This document shows, piece after piece, positions 25,155 through 34,865 of a stretch of DNA of 64,000 nt; within the stretch, counting starts at the first letter, position 1, and each line of letters starts with the position of its first letter. The stretch is taken from the NCBI RefSeq assembly GCF_030384885.1, contig NZ_CP128613.1; one strand, 5' to 3'. This DNA comes from Escherichia coli. GTDB taxonomy: Bacteria > Pseudomonadota > Gammaproteobacteria > Enterobacterales > Enterobacteriaceae. The notes under the pieces are model-generated. The model ran no database searches and was not told where the DNA came from. It saw nothing but the letters and a program-made list of their open reading frames with translations. A program made the position numbers and the translations under genes.

Positions 25155-26696
<1,542 letters not shown>

Positions 26697-26864
26697 AAAA
26701 GTTTGATGCTCAAAGAATTAAACTTCGTAATGAATTACGTGTTCACTCTTGAGACTTGGTATTCATTTTTCGTCTTGCGACGTTAAGAATCCGTATCTTC
26801 GAGTGCCCACACAGATTGTCTGATAAATTGTTAAAGAGCAGTGCCGCTTCGCTTTTTCTCAGCT

Positions 26865-26910
26865 GCGCGGGGTGTGCATAATACGCTTTCCCGCTTCAGA
26901 GTCAAGCATT
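26865..26910 (-). promoter_or_regulatory. rRNA operon promoter P2
   Basis: Minus strand reads TTGACT ... TATTAT (aaaaatgcTTGACTctgaagcgggaaagcgTATTATgcacacc), matching the known rrnB P2. Confidence 0.65.
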
Positions 26911-26984
26911 TTTTTGCTTTTCTCTGTCGAGATTCTCAGGAGAACCCCGCTGACCCGGCGGCGTGTTTGCCGTTGTTCCGTGTC

Positions 26985-27050
26985 AGTGGTGGCGCATTAT
27001 AGGGAGTTATTCCGGCCTGACAAGAGGAAATTTAAAATAATTTTCCGACC
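26985..27050 (-). promoter_or_regulatory. rRNA operon promoter P1 with A/T-rich UP element
   Basis: Minus strand reads cctcTTGTCAggccggaataactcccTATAATgcgccacc, preceded by agaaaattattttaaatttcct; matches rrnB P1. Fis sites would lie further upstream inside the murI 3' end and were not mapped. Confidence 0.7.
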
Positions 27051-27068
27051 GCGCAACATTCAACCAAA

Positions 27069-27926
27069 TCAGTCTAAAACTGCCAGTTTTTCGAGCGTTT
27101 CGAAGCCGTAGCGCTGTAAAACGGGCAATAATTGTTCAGCTTCTGGCGTCATTGCCATACAAAAGGCAATATTCACATCGGCGGATTTTGCATCCGGGGC
27201 TTCATGCTCTAGCAACCATGCCGTTCGGCGAGCAATCGCTGCGCCAGAATCCACCAGCCGGGTTCCCTCTGGCAGCACCTGTAGCAGTTCTTCTTGTAGT
27301 AGAGGGAAATGGGTACACCCCAGTACAACGGTATCTGGCGGCTCTTTCATTCTTAACCACGGACGCAAGATACGTTTTAGCGCATCCAGAGAAACATCTT
27401 CGCCATGCAGCTTCGCTTCAGCCAACTCAACCATCTCTGCCGAGCCCAGCATTTCTATCTGGCATTCATTAGCGAAACGCGCGATCAGCTCATGAGTATA
27501 AGAACGTTTAACTGTTCCGCGGGTTGCCAGTAATCCGACAATGCCATTTGCCGTCAGACGTGCAGCAGGTTTAATCGCCGGCACGACTCCAACAACCGGG
27601 AAGTCGAACTTTTCGCGTAAGGCAGGAAGTGAAACGGTACTGGCAGTGTTGCAAGCGACCACAGCCAACGCAAGGGGATAACGCTCTTGTACCGCAGTGA
27701 CAATTTCCACCACTCGCTCAACAATAAACTCTTCGCTTTTTTCGCCATAAGGGAAAGCGACGTTATCGAAAGCATAAATGTAATGGAGATCCGGTAAGAG
27801 ATGCCGGATCTCGTCATAGACCGACAACCCACCGACGCCGGAGTCAAACACCAGCACGGTGGGACGTGGTTCAGAAGGTGTAGCTGCCAGACAAGGTGTA
27901 TTCCCGTCCTGCAGTTTGGTAGCCAT
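27069..27926 (-). CDS. murI: Glutamate racemase
   Basis: 285-aa product starting [37 protein letters not shown]; its start lies inside the btuB 3' end. Confidence 0.92.
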
Positions 27927-29715
27927 AGACTGTCTCATAATCTTTGTCGAACAGGTTGGCTATTTTACCACGAACTGTCAGGTGAGAGGTGACCGGATAC
28001 GCAACCGCAAGATCCCACAAGCTCACACCGCCCATTTTCACGGTTTGATACGGCCAGGAGGAGTAATCCTTATCATAGCGAGTGCCTAAATACTGATAAG
28101 TAATACCCCAGTCGAAGTCATACAACTGCCAGTCGAGCTGGTATTTCACCTGCTGTTTAGCACGGCGTAACAACGGCGTGTCGGTAATTGCATTGCGCGC
28201 ATCGACATAATCATAACTCACAGTATGCGTCAGTGGTCCGGTATCAAAATTGGCGGTCGCCTCGACGCCCTTAATTCGCGCTTTCCCTTCGTTATAGTAT
28301 TTCAGGGTGTGATCATCGTAATCGATCAAGTCACTGACATCGTTACGATATCCGGAAATACGCCAGTTCACCCCAGCGGTTAAGCCTTCAAACGCGCCTT
28401 CCCACTGTTTGCTTTTCTCAGGTTCCAGATTTGGATTTCCGTAGAAGCCATACAGTTGTCCAAGATTTGGTGCCTTATAAGATGTCCCGTAGGAAGCAAT
28501 GAAGCGATAGCCTTCGATGAATTCCCAACCAGCGCTGGTTTGCCAGGTTCCATGACGACCAAACTGTGAGTTATCGTCGCTGCGTGCTGCGCCTTCAAAG
28601 GTAAAATCGCCGACTTGTTGCAGCCCGGTCAGATAGATGCCGGTATTACGTTGATCATATCCATCCTCAACATAACCTGTACCCGGCGTCGTAGTCTGTT
28701 TCTGCCAGTCGACACCCGCACCAATACTACCGTGACCAACGATGACATTGTTTGCCCACTGGACGGTGTATTGCTTCATCTCATCAAGCGTCGCCGACGA
28801 ATCATAACGACCATAATGGGGATCGTAGTTGTAATCTTTGCTATGGCTATAGCTGGTAATGAGTTGTGATTTAATCAGTTCGCCGTTATAGCGCAGCCCG
28901 GCGTCCCAACTTTGGCTATAGAGTTTACGGGTATCGAGCAACGGTGAGCCGGGAGAATAATATGCGTCATAATTGGTACGGTTATCATAGCCATAGCCGC
29001 GCACAAAACCGCTCCAGACATCAGTAAAGTTATGCTCCAGCGCGCCATAAAGCGTTTTACTTAAAAAACCATCGTTATCTGGCTGAGCTTGCGTTCCGGT
29101 ATTACCATAGGCAACAACATCATAACCATGAGTATGGGCATAATCGCCCAACAGCGTTACCCGTGTCTTATCTCCCAGTTGTTGCTGTGTAGAAACATCA
29201 TAGTTCTGATAGTTATTGCTTCCCCACCCTGCTGAAATTTCCGTTCCGGGTTGATCGCGCGTCGTGATGATATTCACGACCCCACCTATTGCATCGGAAC
29301 CATAGACGGCGGAGCGCGGCCCACGGATATATTCAACACGCTGGACAAGCGCAATAGGGAACTGGCTAAGGTCGGCAGAACCACTCACCCCCGCCAGATT
29401 CAGGCGTACGCCATCAATTAACACCAACACATGACTGGCATTTGTACCGCGAATAAAAATAGAAGAGAGTTGACCTGAACCGCCGTTTTGGGTGATATCG
29501 ACACCCGGAAGACGGCGCAGCACATCATTGACCGAGGTCGACTGCCAGCGGTCGATATCCTGACGCGTCACAACGGTGGTTGGTGCAAGCACAGTGCTGC
29601 GCGGCTGTTCAAAACGGTTAGCAGTAACGACGAGAGTATCCGGGCTGGTATCCTGTGCCCAAGCGGAAAATGCCGTGACGGAACACGCCGTCAGCAGCGA
29701 AGCTTTTTTAATCAT
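27871..29715 (-). CDS. btuB: TonB-dependent vitamin B12 outer-membrane transporter
   Basis: 614-aa product starting [35 protein letters not shown] (TonB box DTLVVTA) and ending in an aromatic residue (..SGSYTF). Confidence 0.95.
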
Positions 29716-29955
29716 TGTAAAGCATCCACAATAGAAGAAGGATGCCGCAGGCTTCATCAATATTACGCGATGATGAGAACCAGATGCGACGTTAGCCGGC
29801 AGGTCTTCGGGCTTGGAGGGGTATATAAAATACTAAGAGATGATGACTTCCCACCGGATGGCAGTGTCCGCATAACGCAATCATCGCACCTTTCCTTACC
29901 GCTGCGCGTCAGCTCCAGATTTGCACTGGATTCCCTATTAACTCACAGGACCGGC
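29716..29955 (-). ncRNA. Cobalamin (adenosylcobalamin) riboswitch in the btuB 5' leader
   Basis: About 240-nt leader; minus strand begins GCCGGTCCTGTGAGTTAATAGGGAATCCAGTGCAAATCTGGAGCTGACGCGCAGCGGTAAGGAAAGGTGCG..., matching the known btuB leader. Confidence 0.8.
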
Positions 29956-30083
29956 GAGTGGATGCTACAGGTTGTAACAAGTTGCTGTCCAGACGTAGCT
30001 CACAAATAGGAATACATCAAGATCTGGACATCTGATGAGCAATCCCTACAATCGCCGCGTACATTTCATTTTCAGGATACATC

Positions 30084-31184
30084 ATGACCCCCGAACACCT
30101 TCCAACAGAACAGTATGAAGCGCAGTTAGCCGAAAAAGTGGTACGTTTGCAAAGTATGATGGCGCCGTTTTCTGACCTGGTTCCGGAAGTGTTTCGCTCG
30201 CCGGTCAGTCATTACCGGATGCGTGCGGAGTTCCGCATCTGGCACGATGGCGATGACCTGTACCACATCATTTTCGATCAACAAACCAAAAGCCGTATCC
30301 GCGTGGATAGCTTCCCCGCCGCCAGTGAACTTATCAACCAGTTGATGACGGCGATGATTGCGGGTGTGCGTAATAATCCCGTTCTGCGCCACAAGCTATT
30401 CCAGATTGATTACCTCACTACGCTGAGTAATCAGGCGGTGGTTTCCCTGCTGTACCATAAAAAGCTGGATGACGAATGGCGTCAACAGGCGGAAGCTCTG
30501 CGCGATGCGTTGCGCGCACAAAATTTAAATGTGCATCTGATTGGTCGGGCAACGAAAACCAAAATCGCGCTGGATCAAGATTACATCGACGAACGTCTGC
30601 CGGTCGCAGGGAAAGAGATGATCTACCGTCAGGTAGAAAACAGTTTTACCCAGCCGAACGCGGCGATGAATATTCAGATGCTGGAATGGGCGCTGGACGT
30701 CACCAAAGGCTCAAAAGGCGATTTACTGGAGCTGTACTGCGGCAACGGTAACTTCTCATTAGCCCTGGCGCGCAATTTTGATCGGGTATTAGCCACCGAA
30801 ATCGCCAAGCCTTCGGTCGCTGCCGCGCAATACAACATTGCCGCTAACCATATTGATAACGTCCAAATTATTCGTATGGCGGCAGAAGAATTTACTCAGG
30901 CGATGAATGGTGTGCGCGAATTTAATCGCCTGCAAGGGATCGACTTAAAGAGTTATCAGTGCGAAACCATTTTTGTCGACCCACCGCGCAGCGGTCTGGA
31001 CAGTGAAACCGAGAAAATGGTGCAGGCGTATCCACGTATTCTGTATATCTCCTGCAATCCGGAAACGTTATGCAAGAATCTGGAAACATTAAGCCAGACG
31101 CACAAGGTTGAACGTCTGGCTCTGTTTGATCAGTTCCCCTACACGCACCATATGGAGTGCGGCGTACTACTGACCGCGAAGTAA
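30084..31184 (+). CDS. trmA: tRNA (uracil54-C5)-methyltransferase
   Basis: 366-aa product [33 protein letters not shown]... Confidence 0.95.
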
Positions 31185-31187
31185 AAT

Positions 31188-31219
31188 CTATGCCGGATGC
31201 GCCAGCATCCGGCATGATA
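31188..31219. terminator. Bidirectional hairpin (REP-like) between convergent trmA and yijD
   Basis: Inverted repeat atgccggatgc / gcatccggcat with gcca loop, directly after the trmA stop. Confidence 0.5.
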
Positions 31220-31223
31220 CCGA

Positions 31224-31583
31224 TTACTCAGCAACTTCCTGCTTACGGTTACGCATCTTCGCGCCAATCCAGAACACCATAATGACGGACAGTACTGCCG
31301 GGAAGAAGTTAGAGCCGATATCCGGATATTCCGCACGAACTACCGTGCTGTACAGCAGAACGCCGAGAATAAAACAGGCAGCTGCCAGACCCGGCAAGCC
31401 TACCGGCATAGTGCGATTAAGATAACGTTGATGCAGGCAGTAAACTGTCAGCACCAGGGAAATAATGGGGAATACAGAAAATGGCACAATGGAGCTAAAC
31501 AGCGCTGCGAAAGTACCATTAATCGATAAGCCAGCCACCAGCGCCAGCAGCAGCGTACCTCTATCTTGATTTGCTTGTTTCAT
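31224..31583 (-). CDS. yijD: Inner-membrane protein YijD (DUF1422)
   Basis: 119-aa hydrophobic product [29 protein letters not shown]...; start overlaps the fabR stop by 1 nt. Confidence 0.88.
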
Positions 31584-32230
31584 TACTCGTCCTTCACATT
31601 TCCCGGAATAATTGCGGTTTTCTCTTGTTCACGGCGATACCAGTAATAAGCCCCTTTCGAAATCATTCGCAGTTGCAGTACCAGTCGCTCTTCTAATTGC
31701 CGACGTTGTTCGACGCCGACGTCCAACGCCTCGGCACCCGCACTGAAGACAATCGTCACCATGGCTTCGGCTTGCGCTTCAGTAAACGCACGCGGCATAT
31801 GGTTTTCGAGTTCCAGATAGTCCGCAAGTTCCGCAATGAAGTGCTGAATTTCACGCGCAACGGCGGCACGAAACGCAGCGGAGGTGCCGGAGCGTTCCCG
31901 CAATAATAACCGGAAGGCGTTAGGATTATTACCGATGAACTCCATAAATGTGGAGACCGAGGTGCGGATCACACTCCCGCCTTTGGCGATACGCTGACGC
32001 GCCTGGCGCATGAGTTGGCGTAGCATTAAACCGCTCTCATCAACCATGGTCAGACCCAGTTCGTCTACGTCGCGGAAATGCCGATAAAAAGAGGTGGGAG
32101 CAATGCCCGCTTCACGCGCCACTTCACGCAAACTCAGGCTGGCGAAGCTGCGTTCAGCACTTAATTGGCTAAATGCGGCTTCCACCAACGAACGGCGGGT
32201 TTTTTCTTTTTGTTGCGCTCTTACGCCCAT
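31583..32230 (-). CDS. fabR: TetR-family repressor of unsaturated fatty-acid synthesis
   Basis: 215-aa product from [20 protein letters not shown]... with N-terminal TetR HTH. The longer ORF to 32326 is an alternative start that cannot be excluded. Confidence 0.85.
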
Positions 32231-32564
32231 CACGATGTCTGAATCCTTGCCAAAAGTACTGCTGGCACTATACCAGAGAATGAACATACTGGATTGCTCC
32301 AGTGTTGTGAATGAACCGTAACGCAATAAAACATATTTACTGCAATTCTTTGGCTGGTTCTTTTACGAACATCGGAAACCTGCCGCTTAAACGGTGAGTA
32401 TTGGCGATAAAAATCCAATAAAACGTTCAAGGCAAAAGTAAGAAACAGACAAAGCAAAGGCCGCTCACGATATAGCCAGATAAATGACGGGGATCAATTG
32501 GCTTACCCGCGATAAAATGTTACCATTCTGTTGCTTTTATGTATAAGAACAGGTAAGCCCTACC

Positions 32565-33965
32565 ATGCCACATTCCTACGATTACGATGCCATAGTAATA
32601 GGTTCCGGCCCCGGCGGCGAAGGCGCTGCAATGGGCCTGGTTAAGCAAGGTGCGCGCGTCGCAGTTATCGAGCGTTATCAAAATGTTGGCGGCGGTTGCA
32701 CCCACTGGGGCACCATCCCGTCGAAAGCTCTCCGTCACGCCGTCAGCCGCATTATAGAATTTAATCAAAACCCACTTTACAGCGACCATTCCCGACTGCT
32801 CCGCTCTTCTTTTGCCGATATCCTTAACCATGCCGATAACGTGATTAATCAACAAACACGTATGCGTCAGGGATTTTACGAACGTAATCACTGTGAAATA
32901 TTGCAGGGGAACGCTCGCTTTGTTGACGAGCATACGTTGGCGCTGGATTGCCCGGACGGCAGCGTCGAAACACTAACCGCTGAAAAATTTGTTATTGCCT
33001 GTGGTTCTCGCCCTTATCATCCAACAGATGTTGATTTCACCCATCCACGCATTTACGACAGCGACTCAATTCTTAGCATGCACCACGAACCGCGCCATGT
33101 ACTTATCTATGGTGCTGGAGTGATCGGCTGTGAATATGCGTCGATCTTCCGCGGTATGGATGTAAAAGTAGATCTGATCAATACCCGCGATCGCCTGCTG
33201 GCATTTCTCGATCAAGAGATGTCAGATTCTCTCTCCTATCACTTCTGGAACAGTGGTGTAGTGATTCGTCACAACGAAGAGTACGAGAAAATCGAAGGCT
33301 GTGACGACGGTGTGATCATGCATCTGAAGTCGGGTAAAAAACTGAAAGCTGACTGTCTGCTCTATGCCAACGGTCGCACCGGTAATACCGATTCGCTAGC
33401 GTTACAGAACATTGGGCTGGAAACTGACAGCCGCGGACAACTTAAAGTCAACAGCATGTACCAGACCGCACAGCCGCACGTTTACGCGGTGGGCGACGTG
33501 ATTGGTTATCCGAGCCTGGCGTCGGCGGCCTATGACCAGGGGCGCATTGCCGCGCAGGCGCTGGTGAAAGGCGAAGCCACCGCACATCTGATTGAAGATA
33601 TCCCTACCGGTATTTACACCATCCCGGAAATCAGCTCTGTGGGCAAAACCGAACAGCAGCTGACCGCGATGAAAGTGCCATATGAAGTGGGCCGCGCCCA
33701 GTTCAAACATCTGGCACGCGCACAAATCGTCGGCATGAACGTGGGCACGCTGAAAATTTTGTTCCATCGGGAAACAAAAGAGATTCTGGGCATTCACTGC
33801 TTTGGCGAGCGCGCTGCCGAAATTATTCATATCGGTCAGGCGATTATGGAACAGAAAGGTGGCGGCAACACTATTGAGTACTTCGTCAACACCACCTTTA
33901 ACTACCCGACGATGGCGGAAGCCTATCGGGTAGCCGCGTTAAACGGTTTAAACCGCCTGTTTTAA
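32565..33965 (+). CDS. sthA: Soluble pyridine nucleotide transhydrogenase
   Basis: 466-aa flavoprotein [36 protein letters not shown]... with GxGxxG motif. Confidence 0.95.
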
Positions 33966-34865
33966 CACTTTATCGAAATGGCCATCCATTCTTGCGCGGA
34001 TGGCCTCTGCCAGCTGCTCATAGCGGCTGCGCAGCGGTGAGCCCGGACGATAAACCAGGCCAATAGTGCGGCGTGGTTCCGGCTTAATACACGGCAAATA
34101 AACAACCCCATCGCGTTTGCGCTCCGGCGGCACAGCCAGTGCAGGCAGTAAAGTGATCCCGCTACCTGCCGCCACCATGTTGCGCAGAGTTTCCAGGCTG
34201 GTCGCGCGGAAGTGTGTATCTTCATCCGCCCCGGCTTCAAAGCAGAAACCCATTGCCTGATCGCGCAAACAGTGACCATCTTCCAGCATCAGCAGTTTTT
34301 CCCCTGCCAGATCGGCCATTGGTACGCATTCGCGGTTCGCCCACGGGTGATCTTCATAGATAGCCAGCAACATTGGCTCATCAAACAACGGCACTTCAAT
34401 GAATGCTTCGCTCTCTTTCACCAACGCGAGGATCACGCAATCGAGTTTGCCACTGTCCAGTTGCGCCAGTAACTGGTGGGTCTGTGCTTCATGCAGATAC
34501 ATTTCCAGCTTTGGAAAGGTCTGGTGCAGCATCGGGATAATATGTGGTAGCAGGTACGGTCCGACCGTGGGAATCAAACCAATATGCAGCGGCCCGGACA
34601 TTGTCTCGCCCTGCTGGCTTGCCATCTCTTTAAGGACTTTCACCTCACGCAGCACGGTACGCGCCTGATCCACCAGCAGCATTCCCGCCTGGGTGAATAA
34701 CACTTTACGGCTGGTCCGCTCCAGCAACATCACGCCCAGCTCATCTTCCAGCTTACGAATTTGCCCGCTAAGCGTCGGCTGGCTAACGTGGCAGGAATCT
34801 GCCGCACGCCGAAAATGACGGTGTTCAGCCAATGCCACCAGGTACTCAAGATCACGAATATTCAT
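33948..34865 (-). CDS. oxyR: LysR-family peroxide-sensing transcriptional regulator
   Basis: 305-aa product starting [40 protein letters not shown]; 3' end overlaps the sthA 3' end by 18 nt (convergent). Confidence 0.95.

What the first reader, a model, noticed from the sequence alone, without database searches (positions are those of the whole stretch)
27871..29955. btuB with intact cobalamin riboswitch leader and 56-nt overlap with murI
The roughly 240-nt btuB leader matches the known B12 riboswitch, and the last 56 nt of btuB overlap the start of the essential murI gene. Both are known from K-12; recorded because the overlap couples an essential cell-wall gene to the 3' end of a riboswitch-controlled transporter.
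Basis: established knowledge. Interest (0 to 1): 0.15.

Follow-up and report, generated by a model that had tools for sequence, protein, structure and literature searches.

The report
Known btuB riboswitch and btuB–murI overlap
This is the ordinary, long-described E. coli vitamin B12 receptor gene btuB with its B12-sensing riboswitch, and its last 56 bases also encode the start of the essential cell-wall gene murI. The one addition is that the roughly 55 bases just before the murI start hardly vary across 80 related species, which suggests that murI keeps its own expression signals inside btuB.

Summary

- **Leader and riboswitch:** the 240-nt btuB leader (29955..29716) holds a full-length cobalamin riboswitch (Rfam RF00174, 87.0 bits, the same score as K-12).
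- **Genes:** btuB (29715..27871, 614 aa) and murI (27926..27069, 285 aa) are both intact.
- **Overlap:** they share 56 nt (27926..27871).
- **Conservation:** RefSeq annotates the same layout in K-12 and in a 100%-identical strain. In 80 Enterobacteriaceae species the overlap is 56 nt in 79. The murI ATG is kept in 80 of 80, while the alternative upstream ATG (27938) is ACG in 79 of 80.

All of this is already known.

The implied regulatory coupling is doubtful. Published work shows that the riboswitch triggers Rho termination early in btuB, yet murI is essential. The 18 btuB codons just upstream of the murI ATG have a third-position entropy of 0.37 bits, against at least 1.14 bits everywhere else in the btuB body. 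They contain an invariant TGGTAAAAT (27970..27962). I infer that this block carries murI's own promoter and translation start region, but I could not find a mapped transcription start.

In passing, btuB occurs as two roughly 55%-identical classes with constant ends.

The parts
29962..29991 (-). btuB sigma-70 promoter: -35 TGGACA (29991..29986), 18-nt spacer, -10 TAGCAT (29967..29962)
   Evidence: Consensus scan. Both hexamers are invariant or nearly so across 81 sequences while the spacer varies. The transcript start at 29955 is assigned by homology to K-12.
29716..29955 (-). 240-nt btuB leader (5' UTR)
   Evidence: Sequence. It differs from K-12 at 6 positions, and all 6 lie in columns that vary between genera. 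The -240 numbering is used in PMC11162775.
29781..29970 (-). Cobalamin (AdoCbl) riboswitch aptamer, Rfam RF00174. The first ~15 nt of the match are unpaired model flank upstream of the transcript start.
   Evidence: 87.0 bits, E 1e-20, model positions 1-189 of 189. K-12 scores the same. 20 of 20 other genera score 76-105 bits.
29795..29814 (-). B12 box (AAGCCCGAAGACCTGCCGGC), including the 3' strand of P1
   Evidence: Located. These columns are invariant in 81 sequences.
29722..29745 (-). Hairpin of the expression platform that covers the btuB ribosome-binding region (GCATCC, 12-nt loop, GGATGC)
   Evidence: Located and present in the centroid fold. The stem arms are invariant and the loop is variable across 81 sequences. 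Its role is taken from the K-12 literature, not tested here.
27871..29715 (-). btuB coding sequence, 614 aa, TonB-dependent B12 receptor
   Evidence: ORF. NCBIfam NF007926 at 1111 bits against a cut-off of 836. TonB box DTLVVTANR at residue 26 and C-terminal Phe.
29506..29635 (-). Region homologous to K-12 btuB +81..+210, where riboswitch-triggered Rho-dependent termination was reported
   Evidence: PMC11162775. Here it is 32% C against 24% for the whole gene. Position assigned by homology only.
27927..27980 (-). Block with strong synonymous-site constraint inside btuB (codons 579-596), just upstream of the murI ATG. Inferred to be murI's own promoter and translation initiation region.
   Evidence: Mean third-position entropy is 0.37 bits, against a minimum of 1.14, mean 1.41 and sd 0.11 for 541 other 18-codon windows. 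The drop is sharp within each BtuB class. The 126-nt query 27985..27860 that contains it matches 5425 of 5426 E. coli genomes.
27962..27970 (-). Candidate extended -10 element TGGTAAAAT (hexamer 27967..27962). The predicted start is around 27957..27953, which is about 4165397..4165401 in K-12.
   Evidence: Codons GTT CGT GGT are invariant in all 79 sequences with a full-length btuB alignment and AAA in 78 of 79. The single exception, Cedecea TGGTAGAAT, changes only hexamer position 3. The motif alone occurs at chance frequency. No transcription start data were found.
27871..27926 (-). 56-nt dual-coding overlap: the last 18 codons plus stop of btuB and the first 19 codons of murI (+1 frame)
   Evidence: The overlap is 56 nt in 79 of 80 species. 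Mean column identity is 0.977 and there are 0 differences from K-12.
27069..27926 (-). murI coding sequence, 285 aa, glutamate racemase
   Evidence: NCBIfam NF002034 at 515.6 bits against a cut-off of 408. The profile starts at residue 24, so the overlap encodes an N-terminal extension. PDB 2JFN is the same 285-aa form.
27936..27938 (-). Alternative in-frame upstream ATG (would give 289 aa and a 68-nt overlap). Not the conserved start.
   Evidence: ACG in 79 of 80 species and in CFT073. SD:anti-SD pairing is -0.9 kcal/mol, against -2.7 for the ATG at 27926.

Best explanation
The interval is the standard Escherichia coli btuB locus on the minus strand.

**Shown here.** A sigma-70 promoter (29991..29962) is followed by a 240-nt leader whose first ~175 nt fold into the adenosylcobalamin riboswitch aptamer. 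The leader's 3' part carries a hairpin over the btuB ribosome-binding site. Both btuB and murI are intact, and the last 56 nt of btuB (27926..27871) are also the first 56 nt of murI in the +1 frame. Translation of murI starts at the ATG at 27926. The 19 residues encoded in the overlap form an N-terminal extension outside the conserved racemase core.

**Taken from the K-12 literature.** When AdoCbl binds, btuB translation initiation is blocked. Rho then terminates transcription early in the btuB ORF.

**Inferred.** Because murI is essential, it is probably not left to the riboswitch. The ~55 nt of btuB just upstream of the murI ATG (27980..27927) are held nearly invariant at synonymous sites across Enterobacteriaceae. 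Most likely they contain murI's own extended -10 promoter (TGGTAAAAT, 27970..27962) and its translation initiation region. On this reading the overlap is a physical constraint, with dual coding and embedded signals, rather than a regulatory coupling.
For: - **Riboswitch:** RF00174 at 87.0 bits, full length, the same score as K-12, and present in 20 of 20 genera tested. The B12 box and the stems of the RBS hairpin are invariant while the loops vary.
- **Genes:** NCBIfam equivalog models are passed for BtuB and MurI.
- **Overlap and start codon:** RefSeq annotates 56 nt in K-12 and in the identical strain. The overlap is 56 nt in 79 of 80 species and the start is ATG in 80 of 80, while the upstream ATG is ACG in 79 of 80. 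PDB 2JFN uses the 285-aa form.
- **Published mechanism:** AdoCbl leads to a translation block and then Rho termination at +81..+210 (PMC11162775). Term-seq found RNA 3' ends at -75 and +40 of btuB (PMC7815308).
- **Independence of murI:**
  - A deletion of the first ~1000 bp of btuB is viable (preprint).
  - Third-position entropy is 0.37 bits in codons 579-596, against at least 1.14 bits in all 541 other windows. The most protein-conserved windows still show about 1.3 bits.
  - The drop is sharp within both BtuB classes.
  - The codons GTT CGT GGT AAA are invariant apart from one change in Cedecea, which falls at hexamer position 3.
  - As a positive control, the known btuB promoter hexamers give the same kind of conservation footprint in this alignment.
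Against: - No transcription start for murI was found in any accessible data set or paper.
- Current literature and databases call btuB-murI an operon, and the two genes were reported as co-upregulated by btuB promoter mutations.
- The motif TGNTANAAT occurs at chance frequency in the window, 7 observed against 6.6 expected, and there is no -35 match.
- The viable btuB deletion carried a kanamycin cassette whose promoter could read through into murI.
- Synonymous diversity in murI recovers only gradually over about 150 nt after the overlap. Some of the conservation may therefore reflect recombination around the exchangeable btuB body rather than a discrete element.
- Only the family Enterobacteriaceae was sampled.
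Confidence: 0.9

Rival explanations
1. btuB-murI is a simple operon. murI is transcribed only from the btuB promoter and therefore falls under riboswitch and Rho control. The conserved block upstream of the murI ATG is only a translation initiation or standby region that captures ribosomes on the long transcript.
For: The literature calls it the btuB-murI operon and reports a ~300-fold rise of the btuB-murI transcript with btuB promoter and RBS mutations. No terminator-like site was found anywhere in 26600..30200. The block is A/U-rich and contains the weak SD sequence GAG.
Against: AdoCbl triggers Rho termination at +81..+210 of btuB, yet murI is essential and cells grow with B12. A deletion of the btuB 5' kilobase is viable. 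The conservation reaches -54, further than a usual initiation region, and its most invariant part is an extended -10-like sequence.
Confidence: 0.2
2. The conserved 3' block is not a discrete functional element. It is a recombination anchor, homogenised because the variable btuB body is repeatedly exchanged between species by homologous recombination through its flanks.
For: Two BtuB classes of ~55% identity are scattered within genera, with a sharp boundary near 28050..27990. Synonymous diversity in murI recovers only gradually with distance: 0.09, 0.66, 0.75, 1.06, 1.17, then about 1.3-1.5 bits.
Against: Within each single class, the btuB side still drops abruptly at codon 579: from 0.81 to 0.35 in class A and from 0.96 to 0.23 in class B. 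Pairs with the same class, such as E. coli and S. enterica arizonae, are about 80% identical in the body but 95-97% identical in the block. The few variable sites in the block fall just after the hexamer and in wobble positions away from the ATG.
Confidence: 0.2
3. The block is conserved because it forms an RNA hairpin. UAGCCA (27962..27957) would pair with UGGCUA (27925..27920) and mask the murI AUG on long transcripts until ribosomes translating btuB open it.
For: The pairing appears in both the minimum-energy and centroid folds.
Against: The fold is no more stable than shuffled sequence (z = -0.69). 24 of 81 sequences carry A to C at 27961, which breaks a pair without any compensating change.
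Confidence: 0.07
4. murI starts elsewhere. Either it starts at the upstream ATG at 27938 (289 aa, 68-nt overlap, as in the original ORF description), or it starts downstream of the btuB stop so that no real coding overlap exists.
For: ATG 27938 is in frame in this window and in K-12. TraDIS insertions inside the overlap are tolerated in one orientation, which suggests a shorter MurI can function.
Against: ATG 27938 is ACG in 79 of 80 species and in CFT073 and has a weaker SD. ATG 27926 is invariant in 81 of 81 sequences. The downstream GTGs at 27857 and 27851 have no SD, and TTG 27827 lies inside the conserved DSGVGGL motif. The K-12 annotation and the PDB construct use the 285-aa form.
Confidence: 0.04

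Closest known systems
E. coli K-12 btuB adenosylcobalamin riboswitch (Rfam RF00174; the btuB leader of the Kadner, Breaker and Lafontaine work)
   Same: Same locus, same 240-nt leader and same covariance-model score of 87.0 bits. The B12 box and RBS hairpin are identical. The promoter has the same hexamers.
   Different: It differs from K-12 at six leader positions (29922, 29857, 29829, 29825, 29794, 29752). All six lie in columns that vary between genera. Two of them remove one pair from a peripheral hairpin.
K-12 btuB-murI 56-nt gene overlap (b3966/b3967)
   Same: Identical length, frame and sequence, with 0 differences in the 56 nt.
   Different: None in the overlap. MurI differs from K-12 at 5 residues elsewhere.
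Translational riboswitches of E. coli that secondarily trigger Rho-dependent termination (btuB, lysC, ribB, thiM/thiC, mgtA)
   Same: By homology, the same published mechanism should operate here.
   Different: btuB is followed by an essential gene that overlaps it. The papers on btuB and Rho that I read do not discuss murI: the term occurs 0 times in PMC11162775.
Promoters for essential genes embedded in the coding sequence of the upstream gene (for example the ftsZ promoters within ddlB, ftsQ and ftsA of the E. coli dcw cluster; cited from established knowledge, not checked here)
   Same: The inferred arrangement is the same: expression signals for an essential cell-wall gene sit inside the 3' end of the preceding ORF and constrain its synonymous sites.
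   Different: For murI the promoter is only inferred from conservation. No transcription start was located.

Membership tests
Cobalamin riboswitch (Rfam RF00174) | Covariance-model score at or above the curated gathering score, over the full model | tested here: met
   87.0 bits against 31.5, model positions 1-189 of 189, not truncated
Cobalamin riboswitch (Rfam RF00174) | Conserved B12 box adjoining the 3' strand of P1 | tested here: met
   AAGCCCGAAGACCTGCCGGC at 29814..29795, invariant in 81 sequences
Cobalamin riboswitch (Rfam RF00174) | Position in the 5' leader of a cobalamin transport or metabolism gene, same strand | tested here: met
   The match ends 65 nt upstream of the btuB ATG. 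The arrangement is the same in 20 of 20 genera.
Cobalamin riboswitch (Rfam RF00174) | Binds adenosylcobalamin and represses the downstream gene | not testable with these tools
   Shown for the K-12 orthologue in the literature. Here it is inferred from near-identity.
TonB-dependent vitamin B12 receptor BtuB (NCBIfam NF007926 / TIGR01779) | Equivalog model passed over the full length | tested here: met
   1111 bits against a cut-off of 836, residues 1-614. TIGR01779 scores 904.8 against 599.7.
TonB-dependent vitamin B12 receptor BtuB (NCBIfam NF007926 / TIGR01779) | Uninterrupted ORF with signal peptide, TonB box and C-terminal aromatic residue | tested here: met
   614 aa with no internal stop. 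DTLVVTANR at residue 26. The protein ends ...SGSYTF.
Glutamate racemase MurI (NCBIfam NF002034 / TIGR00067) | Equivalog model passed | tested here: met
   515.6 bits against a cut-off of 408, residues 24-283. Near-identical to PDB 2JFN, differing at 4 of the 284 aligned residues.
Glutamate racemase MurI (NCBIfam NF002034 / TIGR00067) | The two catalytic cysteine motifs (ACNTAS and GCTHFP) | tested here: met
   VVACNTAST and VLGCTHFPL are both present in the translation
Overlapping gene pair btuB/murI as annotated in K-12 | murI start codon lies 56 nt upstream of the end of the btuB stop codon, and the start is conserved | tested here: met
   27926 against 27871. Same layout in K-12 and in RefSeq strain 2013C-4282. 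79 of 80 species have a 56-nt overlap and 80 of 80 have ATG.
Sigma-70 extended -10 promoter (candidate murI promoter) | TGn upstream of a TATAAT-like hexamer with A at position 2 and T at position 6 | tested here: inconclusive
   TGGTAAAAT at 27970..27962 fits and is invariant at synonymous sites. The motif itself occurs at chance frequency and there is no -35 match.
Sigma-70 extended -10 promoter (candidate murI promoter) | A primary transcript 5' end 5-9 nt downstream of the hexamer | not testable with these tools
   Supplements of five E. coli transcriptome papers gave no murI TSS entry and a sixth (Thomason 2015) was not held. No paper in the searchable library contains 'murI promoter'.

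The most novel reading that the evidence does not exclude
The last ~110 nt of btuB may act as a fixed 'service module' for murI. It would consist of a dedicated extended -10 promoter and initiation region (27980..27927) followed by the dual-coding overlap. This module would insulate the essential racemase from the AdoCbl riboswitch and Rho switch. It would also form the constant 3' end against which two ~55%-identical BtuB receptor bodies are swapped among Enterobacteriaceae. I found no description of such a murI promoter in the searchable literature. Older papers that I could not read may contain one (Baliko et al. 1988 and 1993; Doublet et al. 1992 and 1993; cited from memory).
Probability: 0.3. 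Interest if true: 0.35.

Novelty: already known. Interest (0 to 1): 0.13.

Why it matters
As recorded, the finding adds nothing new. The btuB riboswitch is among the best-studied riboswitches, and the 56-nt btuB-murI overlap is part of the K-12 annotation.

It has practical weight. By one preprint's account, the overlap is why the Keio collection has no btuB knockout and why murI shows up as an artefact in phage-receptor screens.

The modest added value concerns mechanism. Recent work showing that the riboswitch causes Rho termination early in btuB does not ask how the essential downstream murI escapes that termination. The conservation pattern found here points to a specific ~55-nt stretch and a 9-nt motif where this question can be tested.

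Tried and rejected
- **Internal promoter-like site at 28099..28072** (TTATCA, 16-nt spacer, TATGAT). Rejected as a murI promoter because it lies in the least conserved bin of btuB, at 1.72 bits.
- **Upstream ATG 27938 as the murI start.** Rejected: it is ACG in 79 of 80 species.
- **Downstream GTG or TTG starts.** Rejected: they have no SD or lie inside the catalytic motif.
- **Antisense ORFs 27801..27992(+) and 27859..28089(+)** as the cause of conservation. Rejected: they are open in only 38 of 81 and 1 of 81 sequences.
- **RNA hairpin over the murI AUG.** Not supported.
- **Whole-leader minimum free energy as evidence of structure.** Uninformative, z = +0.42. The Rfam model and the conservation pattern were used instead.
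- **Search for a mapped murI TSS.**
  - The Ettwiller 2016 supplement is cut before 4.16 Mb.
  - Thomason 2015 is not held.
  - The Conway 2014, Sci Adv 2025, Kim 2012 and Yan 2018 supplements contain nothing on murI.
  - Goodall 2018 does not mention murI or btuB.
  - Doublet 1993 and Baba 2006 are not held.
- **Reaching beyond Enterobacteriaceae** (Yersinia, Serratia, Vibrio). This failed. The single genome scan kept only the 80 closest species, and the protein search listed only hits of at least 86% identity.
Full report
**What is there**

All features of the finding lie on the minus strand. ORF listing and direct reading give:
- btuB at 29715..27871, 614 aa. The protein begins MIKKASLL and the TGA stop is at 27873..27871.
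- murI with an ATG at 27926 and its stop codon at 27071..27069, 285 aa.

The two genes share 27926..27871, exactly 56 nt, with murI in the +1 frame relative to btuB.

Rfam places a full-length cobalamin riboswitch (RF00174) at 29970..29781. It scores 87.0 bits against a gathering score of 31.5, with E about 1e-20. The K-12 sequence gives the same score. The K-12 transcript start (GCCGGUCC...) maps to 29955, which makes the leader 240 nt. This agrees with the -240 numbering in PMC11162775.

A promoter-like site sits in the expected place just upstream: TGGACA, an 18-nt spacer, then TAGCAT, at 29991..29962.

NCBIfam equivalog models confirm both proteins:
- BtuB matches NF007926 at 1111 bits against a cut-off of 836.
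- MurI matches NF002034 at 515.6 bits against a cut-off of 408.

**Is it the known thing?**

Yes. The 3.1-kb region matches E. coli strain 2013C-4282 at 100% and K-12-like genomes at 97.4%. RefSeq annotates a riboswitch, btuB and murI with a 56-nt overlap in that strain, and the same btuB and murI coordinates in K-12.

Compared with K-12, the leader has six substitutions and the overlap has none. All six leader substitutions fall in columns that vary between genera. The aptamer is therefore intact by every test available here.

Recent papers describe the overlap and the 'btuB-murI operon' explicitly.

**Which murI start?**

This window and K-12 carry a second in-frame ATG at 27938. That start would give 289 aa and a 68-nt overlap.

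I fetched the locus from 80 Enterobacteriaceae species representing some 30 named genera. Across these loci:
- The overlap is 56 nt in 79 of 80. The exception is a Citrobacter assembly with a frameshift near the btuB 3' end.
- The annotated ATG is ATG in 80 of 80.
- The upstream ATG is ACG in 79 of 80. It is also ACG in E. coli CFT073.

Three further points agree. SD:anti-SD pairing is weak but better for 27926 (-2.7 kcal/mol) than for 27938 (-0.9 kcal/mol). The crystal-structure construct 2JFN is the 285-aa form. No credible start lies downstream of the btuB stop.

The MurI family profiles and the Gram-positive MurI structures align only from about residue 24. The 19 residues encoded in the overlap are thus an N-terminal extension outside the racemase core.

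**How it works**

The mechanism of the riboswitch is taken from the K-12 literature, not tested here:
1. AdoCbl binding blocks btuB translation initiation.
2. Rho-dependent termination then follows within +81..+210 of the ORF (PMC11162775). By homology this is 29635..29506, and the stretch is C-rich here.
3. Term-seq in K-12 found RNA 3' ends at -75 and +40 of btuB (PMC7815308). These map to 29790 and 29675 in the window.

In my 81-sequence alignment, the two promoter hexamers, the B12 box and the two arms of the RBS hairpin (29745..29722) are invariant, while spacers and loops vary. A full-length RF00174 hit precedes btuB in 20 of 20 genera tested.

**The coupling question**

Physically this is true. 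A 2025 preprint states that the Keio collection lacks a btuB knockout for this reason. It also reports that TraDIS insertions in the overlap are tolerated mainly in one orientation, and that deleting the first ~1000 bp of btuB is viable.

Regulatory coupling is a different matter. If murI depended only on the btuB promoter, AdoCbl-induced Rho termination would starve the cell of an essential enzyme. PMC11162775 never mentions murI.

I therefore measured nucleotide-level constraint along btuB. In a codon alignment of 79 full-length sequences:
- Third-position entropy averages 1.41 bits over 18-codon windows of the body (sd 0.11, minimum 1.14, n = 541).
- Even the most protein-conserved windows have about 1.3 bits.
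- The dual-coding overlap has 0.15 bits, as expected.
- The 18 codons upstream of the murI ATG (codons 579-596, 27980..27927) have only 0.37 bits. Dual coding cannot explain this, because the murI frame is closed by a TAG at 27962..27960.

The drop at codon 579 is sharp within each of the two BtuB classes described below.

The most invariant part of the block is GTT CGT GGT AAA AT, which contains TGGTAAAAT (27970..27962), an extended -10-like element. The two positions immediately after the hexamer vary. The single change inside the motif, TGGTAGAAT in Cedecea, falls at hexamer position 3.

As a control, the known btuB promoter leaves the same kind of conservation footprint in this alignment.

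I infer that this block holds a murI-specific promoter and the translation initiation region. The predicted start is around 27957..27953, which is about 4165397..4165401 in K-12.

**Caveats on that inference**

- The motif alone occurs at chance frequency, 7 observed against 6.6 expected, and there is no -35 match.
- I found no mapped TSS. Supplements of several transcriptome papers were absent, truncated or silent on murI. The phrase 'murI promoter' occurs nowhere in the searchable library. Older papers that may bear on this were not held.
- Synonymous diversity in murI recovers only gradually after the overlap: 0.09, 0.66, 0.75, 1.06, 1.17, then about 1.3-1.5 bits. Recombination around the exchangeable btuB body may therefore add to the conservation.
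- A predicted hairpin over the murI AUG is not supported.
- The antisense ORFs are not conserved.
- The promoter-like hit at 28099..28072 lies in the least conserved part of btuB.

**Side observation**

BtuB identity to the window protein is bimodal across the 80 species. Forty-four species fall at 50-60% identity, while MurI stays at 86-98%.

Clustering gives two classes of 35 and 43 sequences. Both classes occur within Escherichia, Salmonella, Citrobacter and Enterobacter. One E. coli genome (L004) carries the other class, with breakpoints near 29640 and 28060.

The exchangeable part is thus the mature receptor body. The promoter, riboswitch and signal-peptide end stays constant, and so does the last ~110 nt. 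A 126-nt query spanning the 3' block (27985..27860) matches 5425 of 5426 complete E. coli genomes, at 99% identity or better in 5284. By contrast, only 5050 genomes cover 80% or more of the 3.1-kb region in one piece.

**Verdict**

The one thing worth following up is the synonymous-site-frozen block upstream of the murI ATG. It offers a concrete and cheap test of how an essential gene escapes a riboswitch and Rho switch that acts on the gene it overlaps.

Noticed in passing
window 29640..28050 (btuB body); loci L003-L082: BtuB occurs as two classes only ~55% identical in protein, with 35 and 43 of 79 sequences. They sit at the same locus and are distributed patchily within Escherichia, Salmonella, Citrobacter and Enterobacter, while MurI stays 86-98% identical. 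An E. coli genome (L004) carries the other class, with breakpoints near 29640 and 28060. This suggests cassette-like exchange of the phage and colicin receptor body between constant regulatory ends.
   Followed up: partly
window 27881..27700 (murI codons ~16-75): Synonymous diversity in murI stays depressed well past the overlap and recovers gradually over about 150-200 nt: 0.66, 0.75, 1.06, 1.17, then about 1.4 bits. The cause is unexplained. It could be an mRNA constraint at the 5' end of the coding sequence, or recombination hitch-hiking next to the btuB cassette.
   Followed up: no
window 29715..29656 (first 20 btuB codons): Third-position entropy is only 0.59-0.61 bits, against about 1.4 in the body. 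This fits published regulatory use of the early coding region, where an OmrA pairing site was tested with a -240..+99 fusion, but I did not dissect it.
   Followed up: no
window 27936..27938: The upstream in-frame ATG that gave the historical 289-aa murI ORF is a lineage-specific polymorphism. It is ATG here, in K-12 and in Escherichia sp. E1V33, but ACG in 79 of 80 species and in CFT073.
   Followed up: yes
window 27000..34700: The source is a rare E. coli lineage. Only 1 of 5426 complete genomes (2013C-4282, human stool, USA) is at least 99% identical over trmA-btuB-murI, and only 2 over fabR-sthA-oxyR, where the match to 2013C-4282 is 99.9% rather than 100%. Divergence from K-12 is about 2.6% and spread evenly.
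   Followed up: partly
window 26878..27132: The rrnB P1 promoter (27023..26996, TTGTCA, 16-nt spacer, TATAAT) and P2 promoter (26905..26878) follow murI directly. No terminator-like site was found anywhere in 26600..30200. Third-position entropy in murI falls to 0.87 bits in its last 45 nt, where, from established knowledge, the upstream activating (Fis) region of rrnB P1 lies.
   Followed up: no
   Followed up: partly
L055 (Intestinirhabdus alba) and L074 (Citrobacter amalonaticus AUH_CA_2023_1): L055 btuB has an in-frame stop at codon 392, although 85% identity extends over the full length. L074 shows a frame change between residues ~560 and 580. In both, the 3' block and the murI start are intact. 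I did not determine whether these are pseudogenes or assembly errors.
   Followed up: partly
window 29790 and 29675: Published Term-seq RNA 3' ends in K-12 at 4163564 (75 nt upstream of the btuB ATG, flagged 'riboswitch') and 4163679 (+40 in the ORF) map here, just after the aptamer and early in the coding sequence.
   Followed up: no
E. coli genome search: Two of the 5427 matches to the 126-nt btuB-3'/murI-5' block lie on plasmids. I did not look at them.
   Followed up: no
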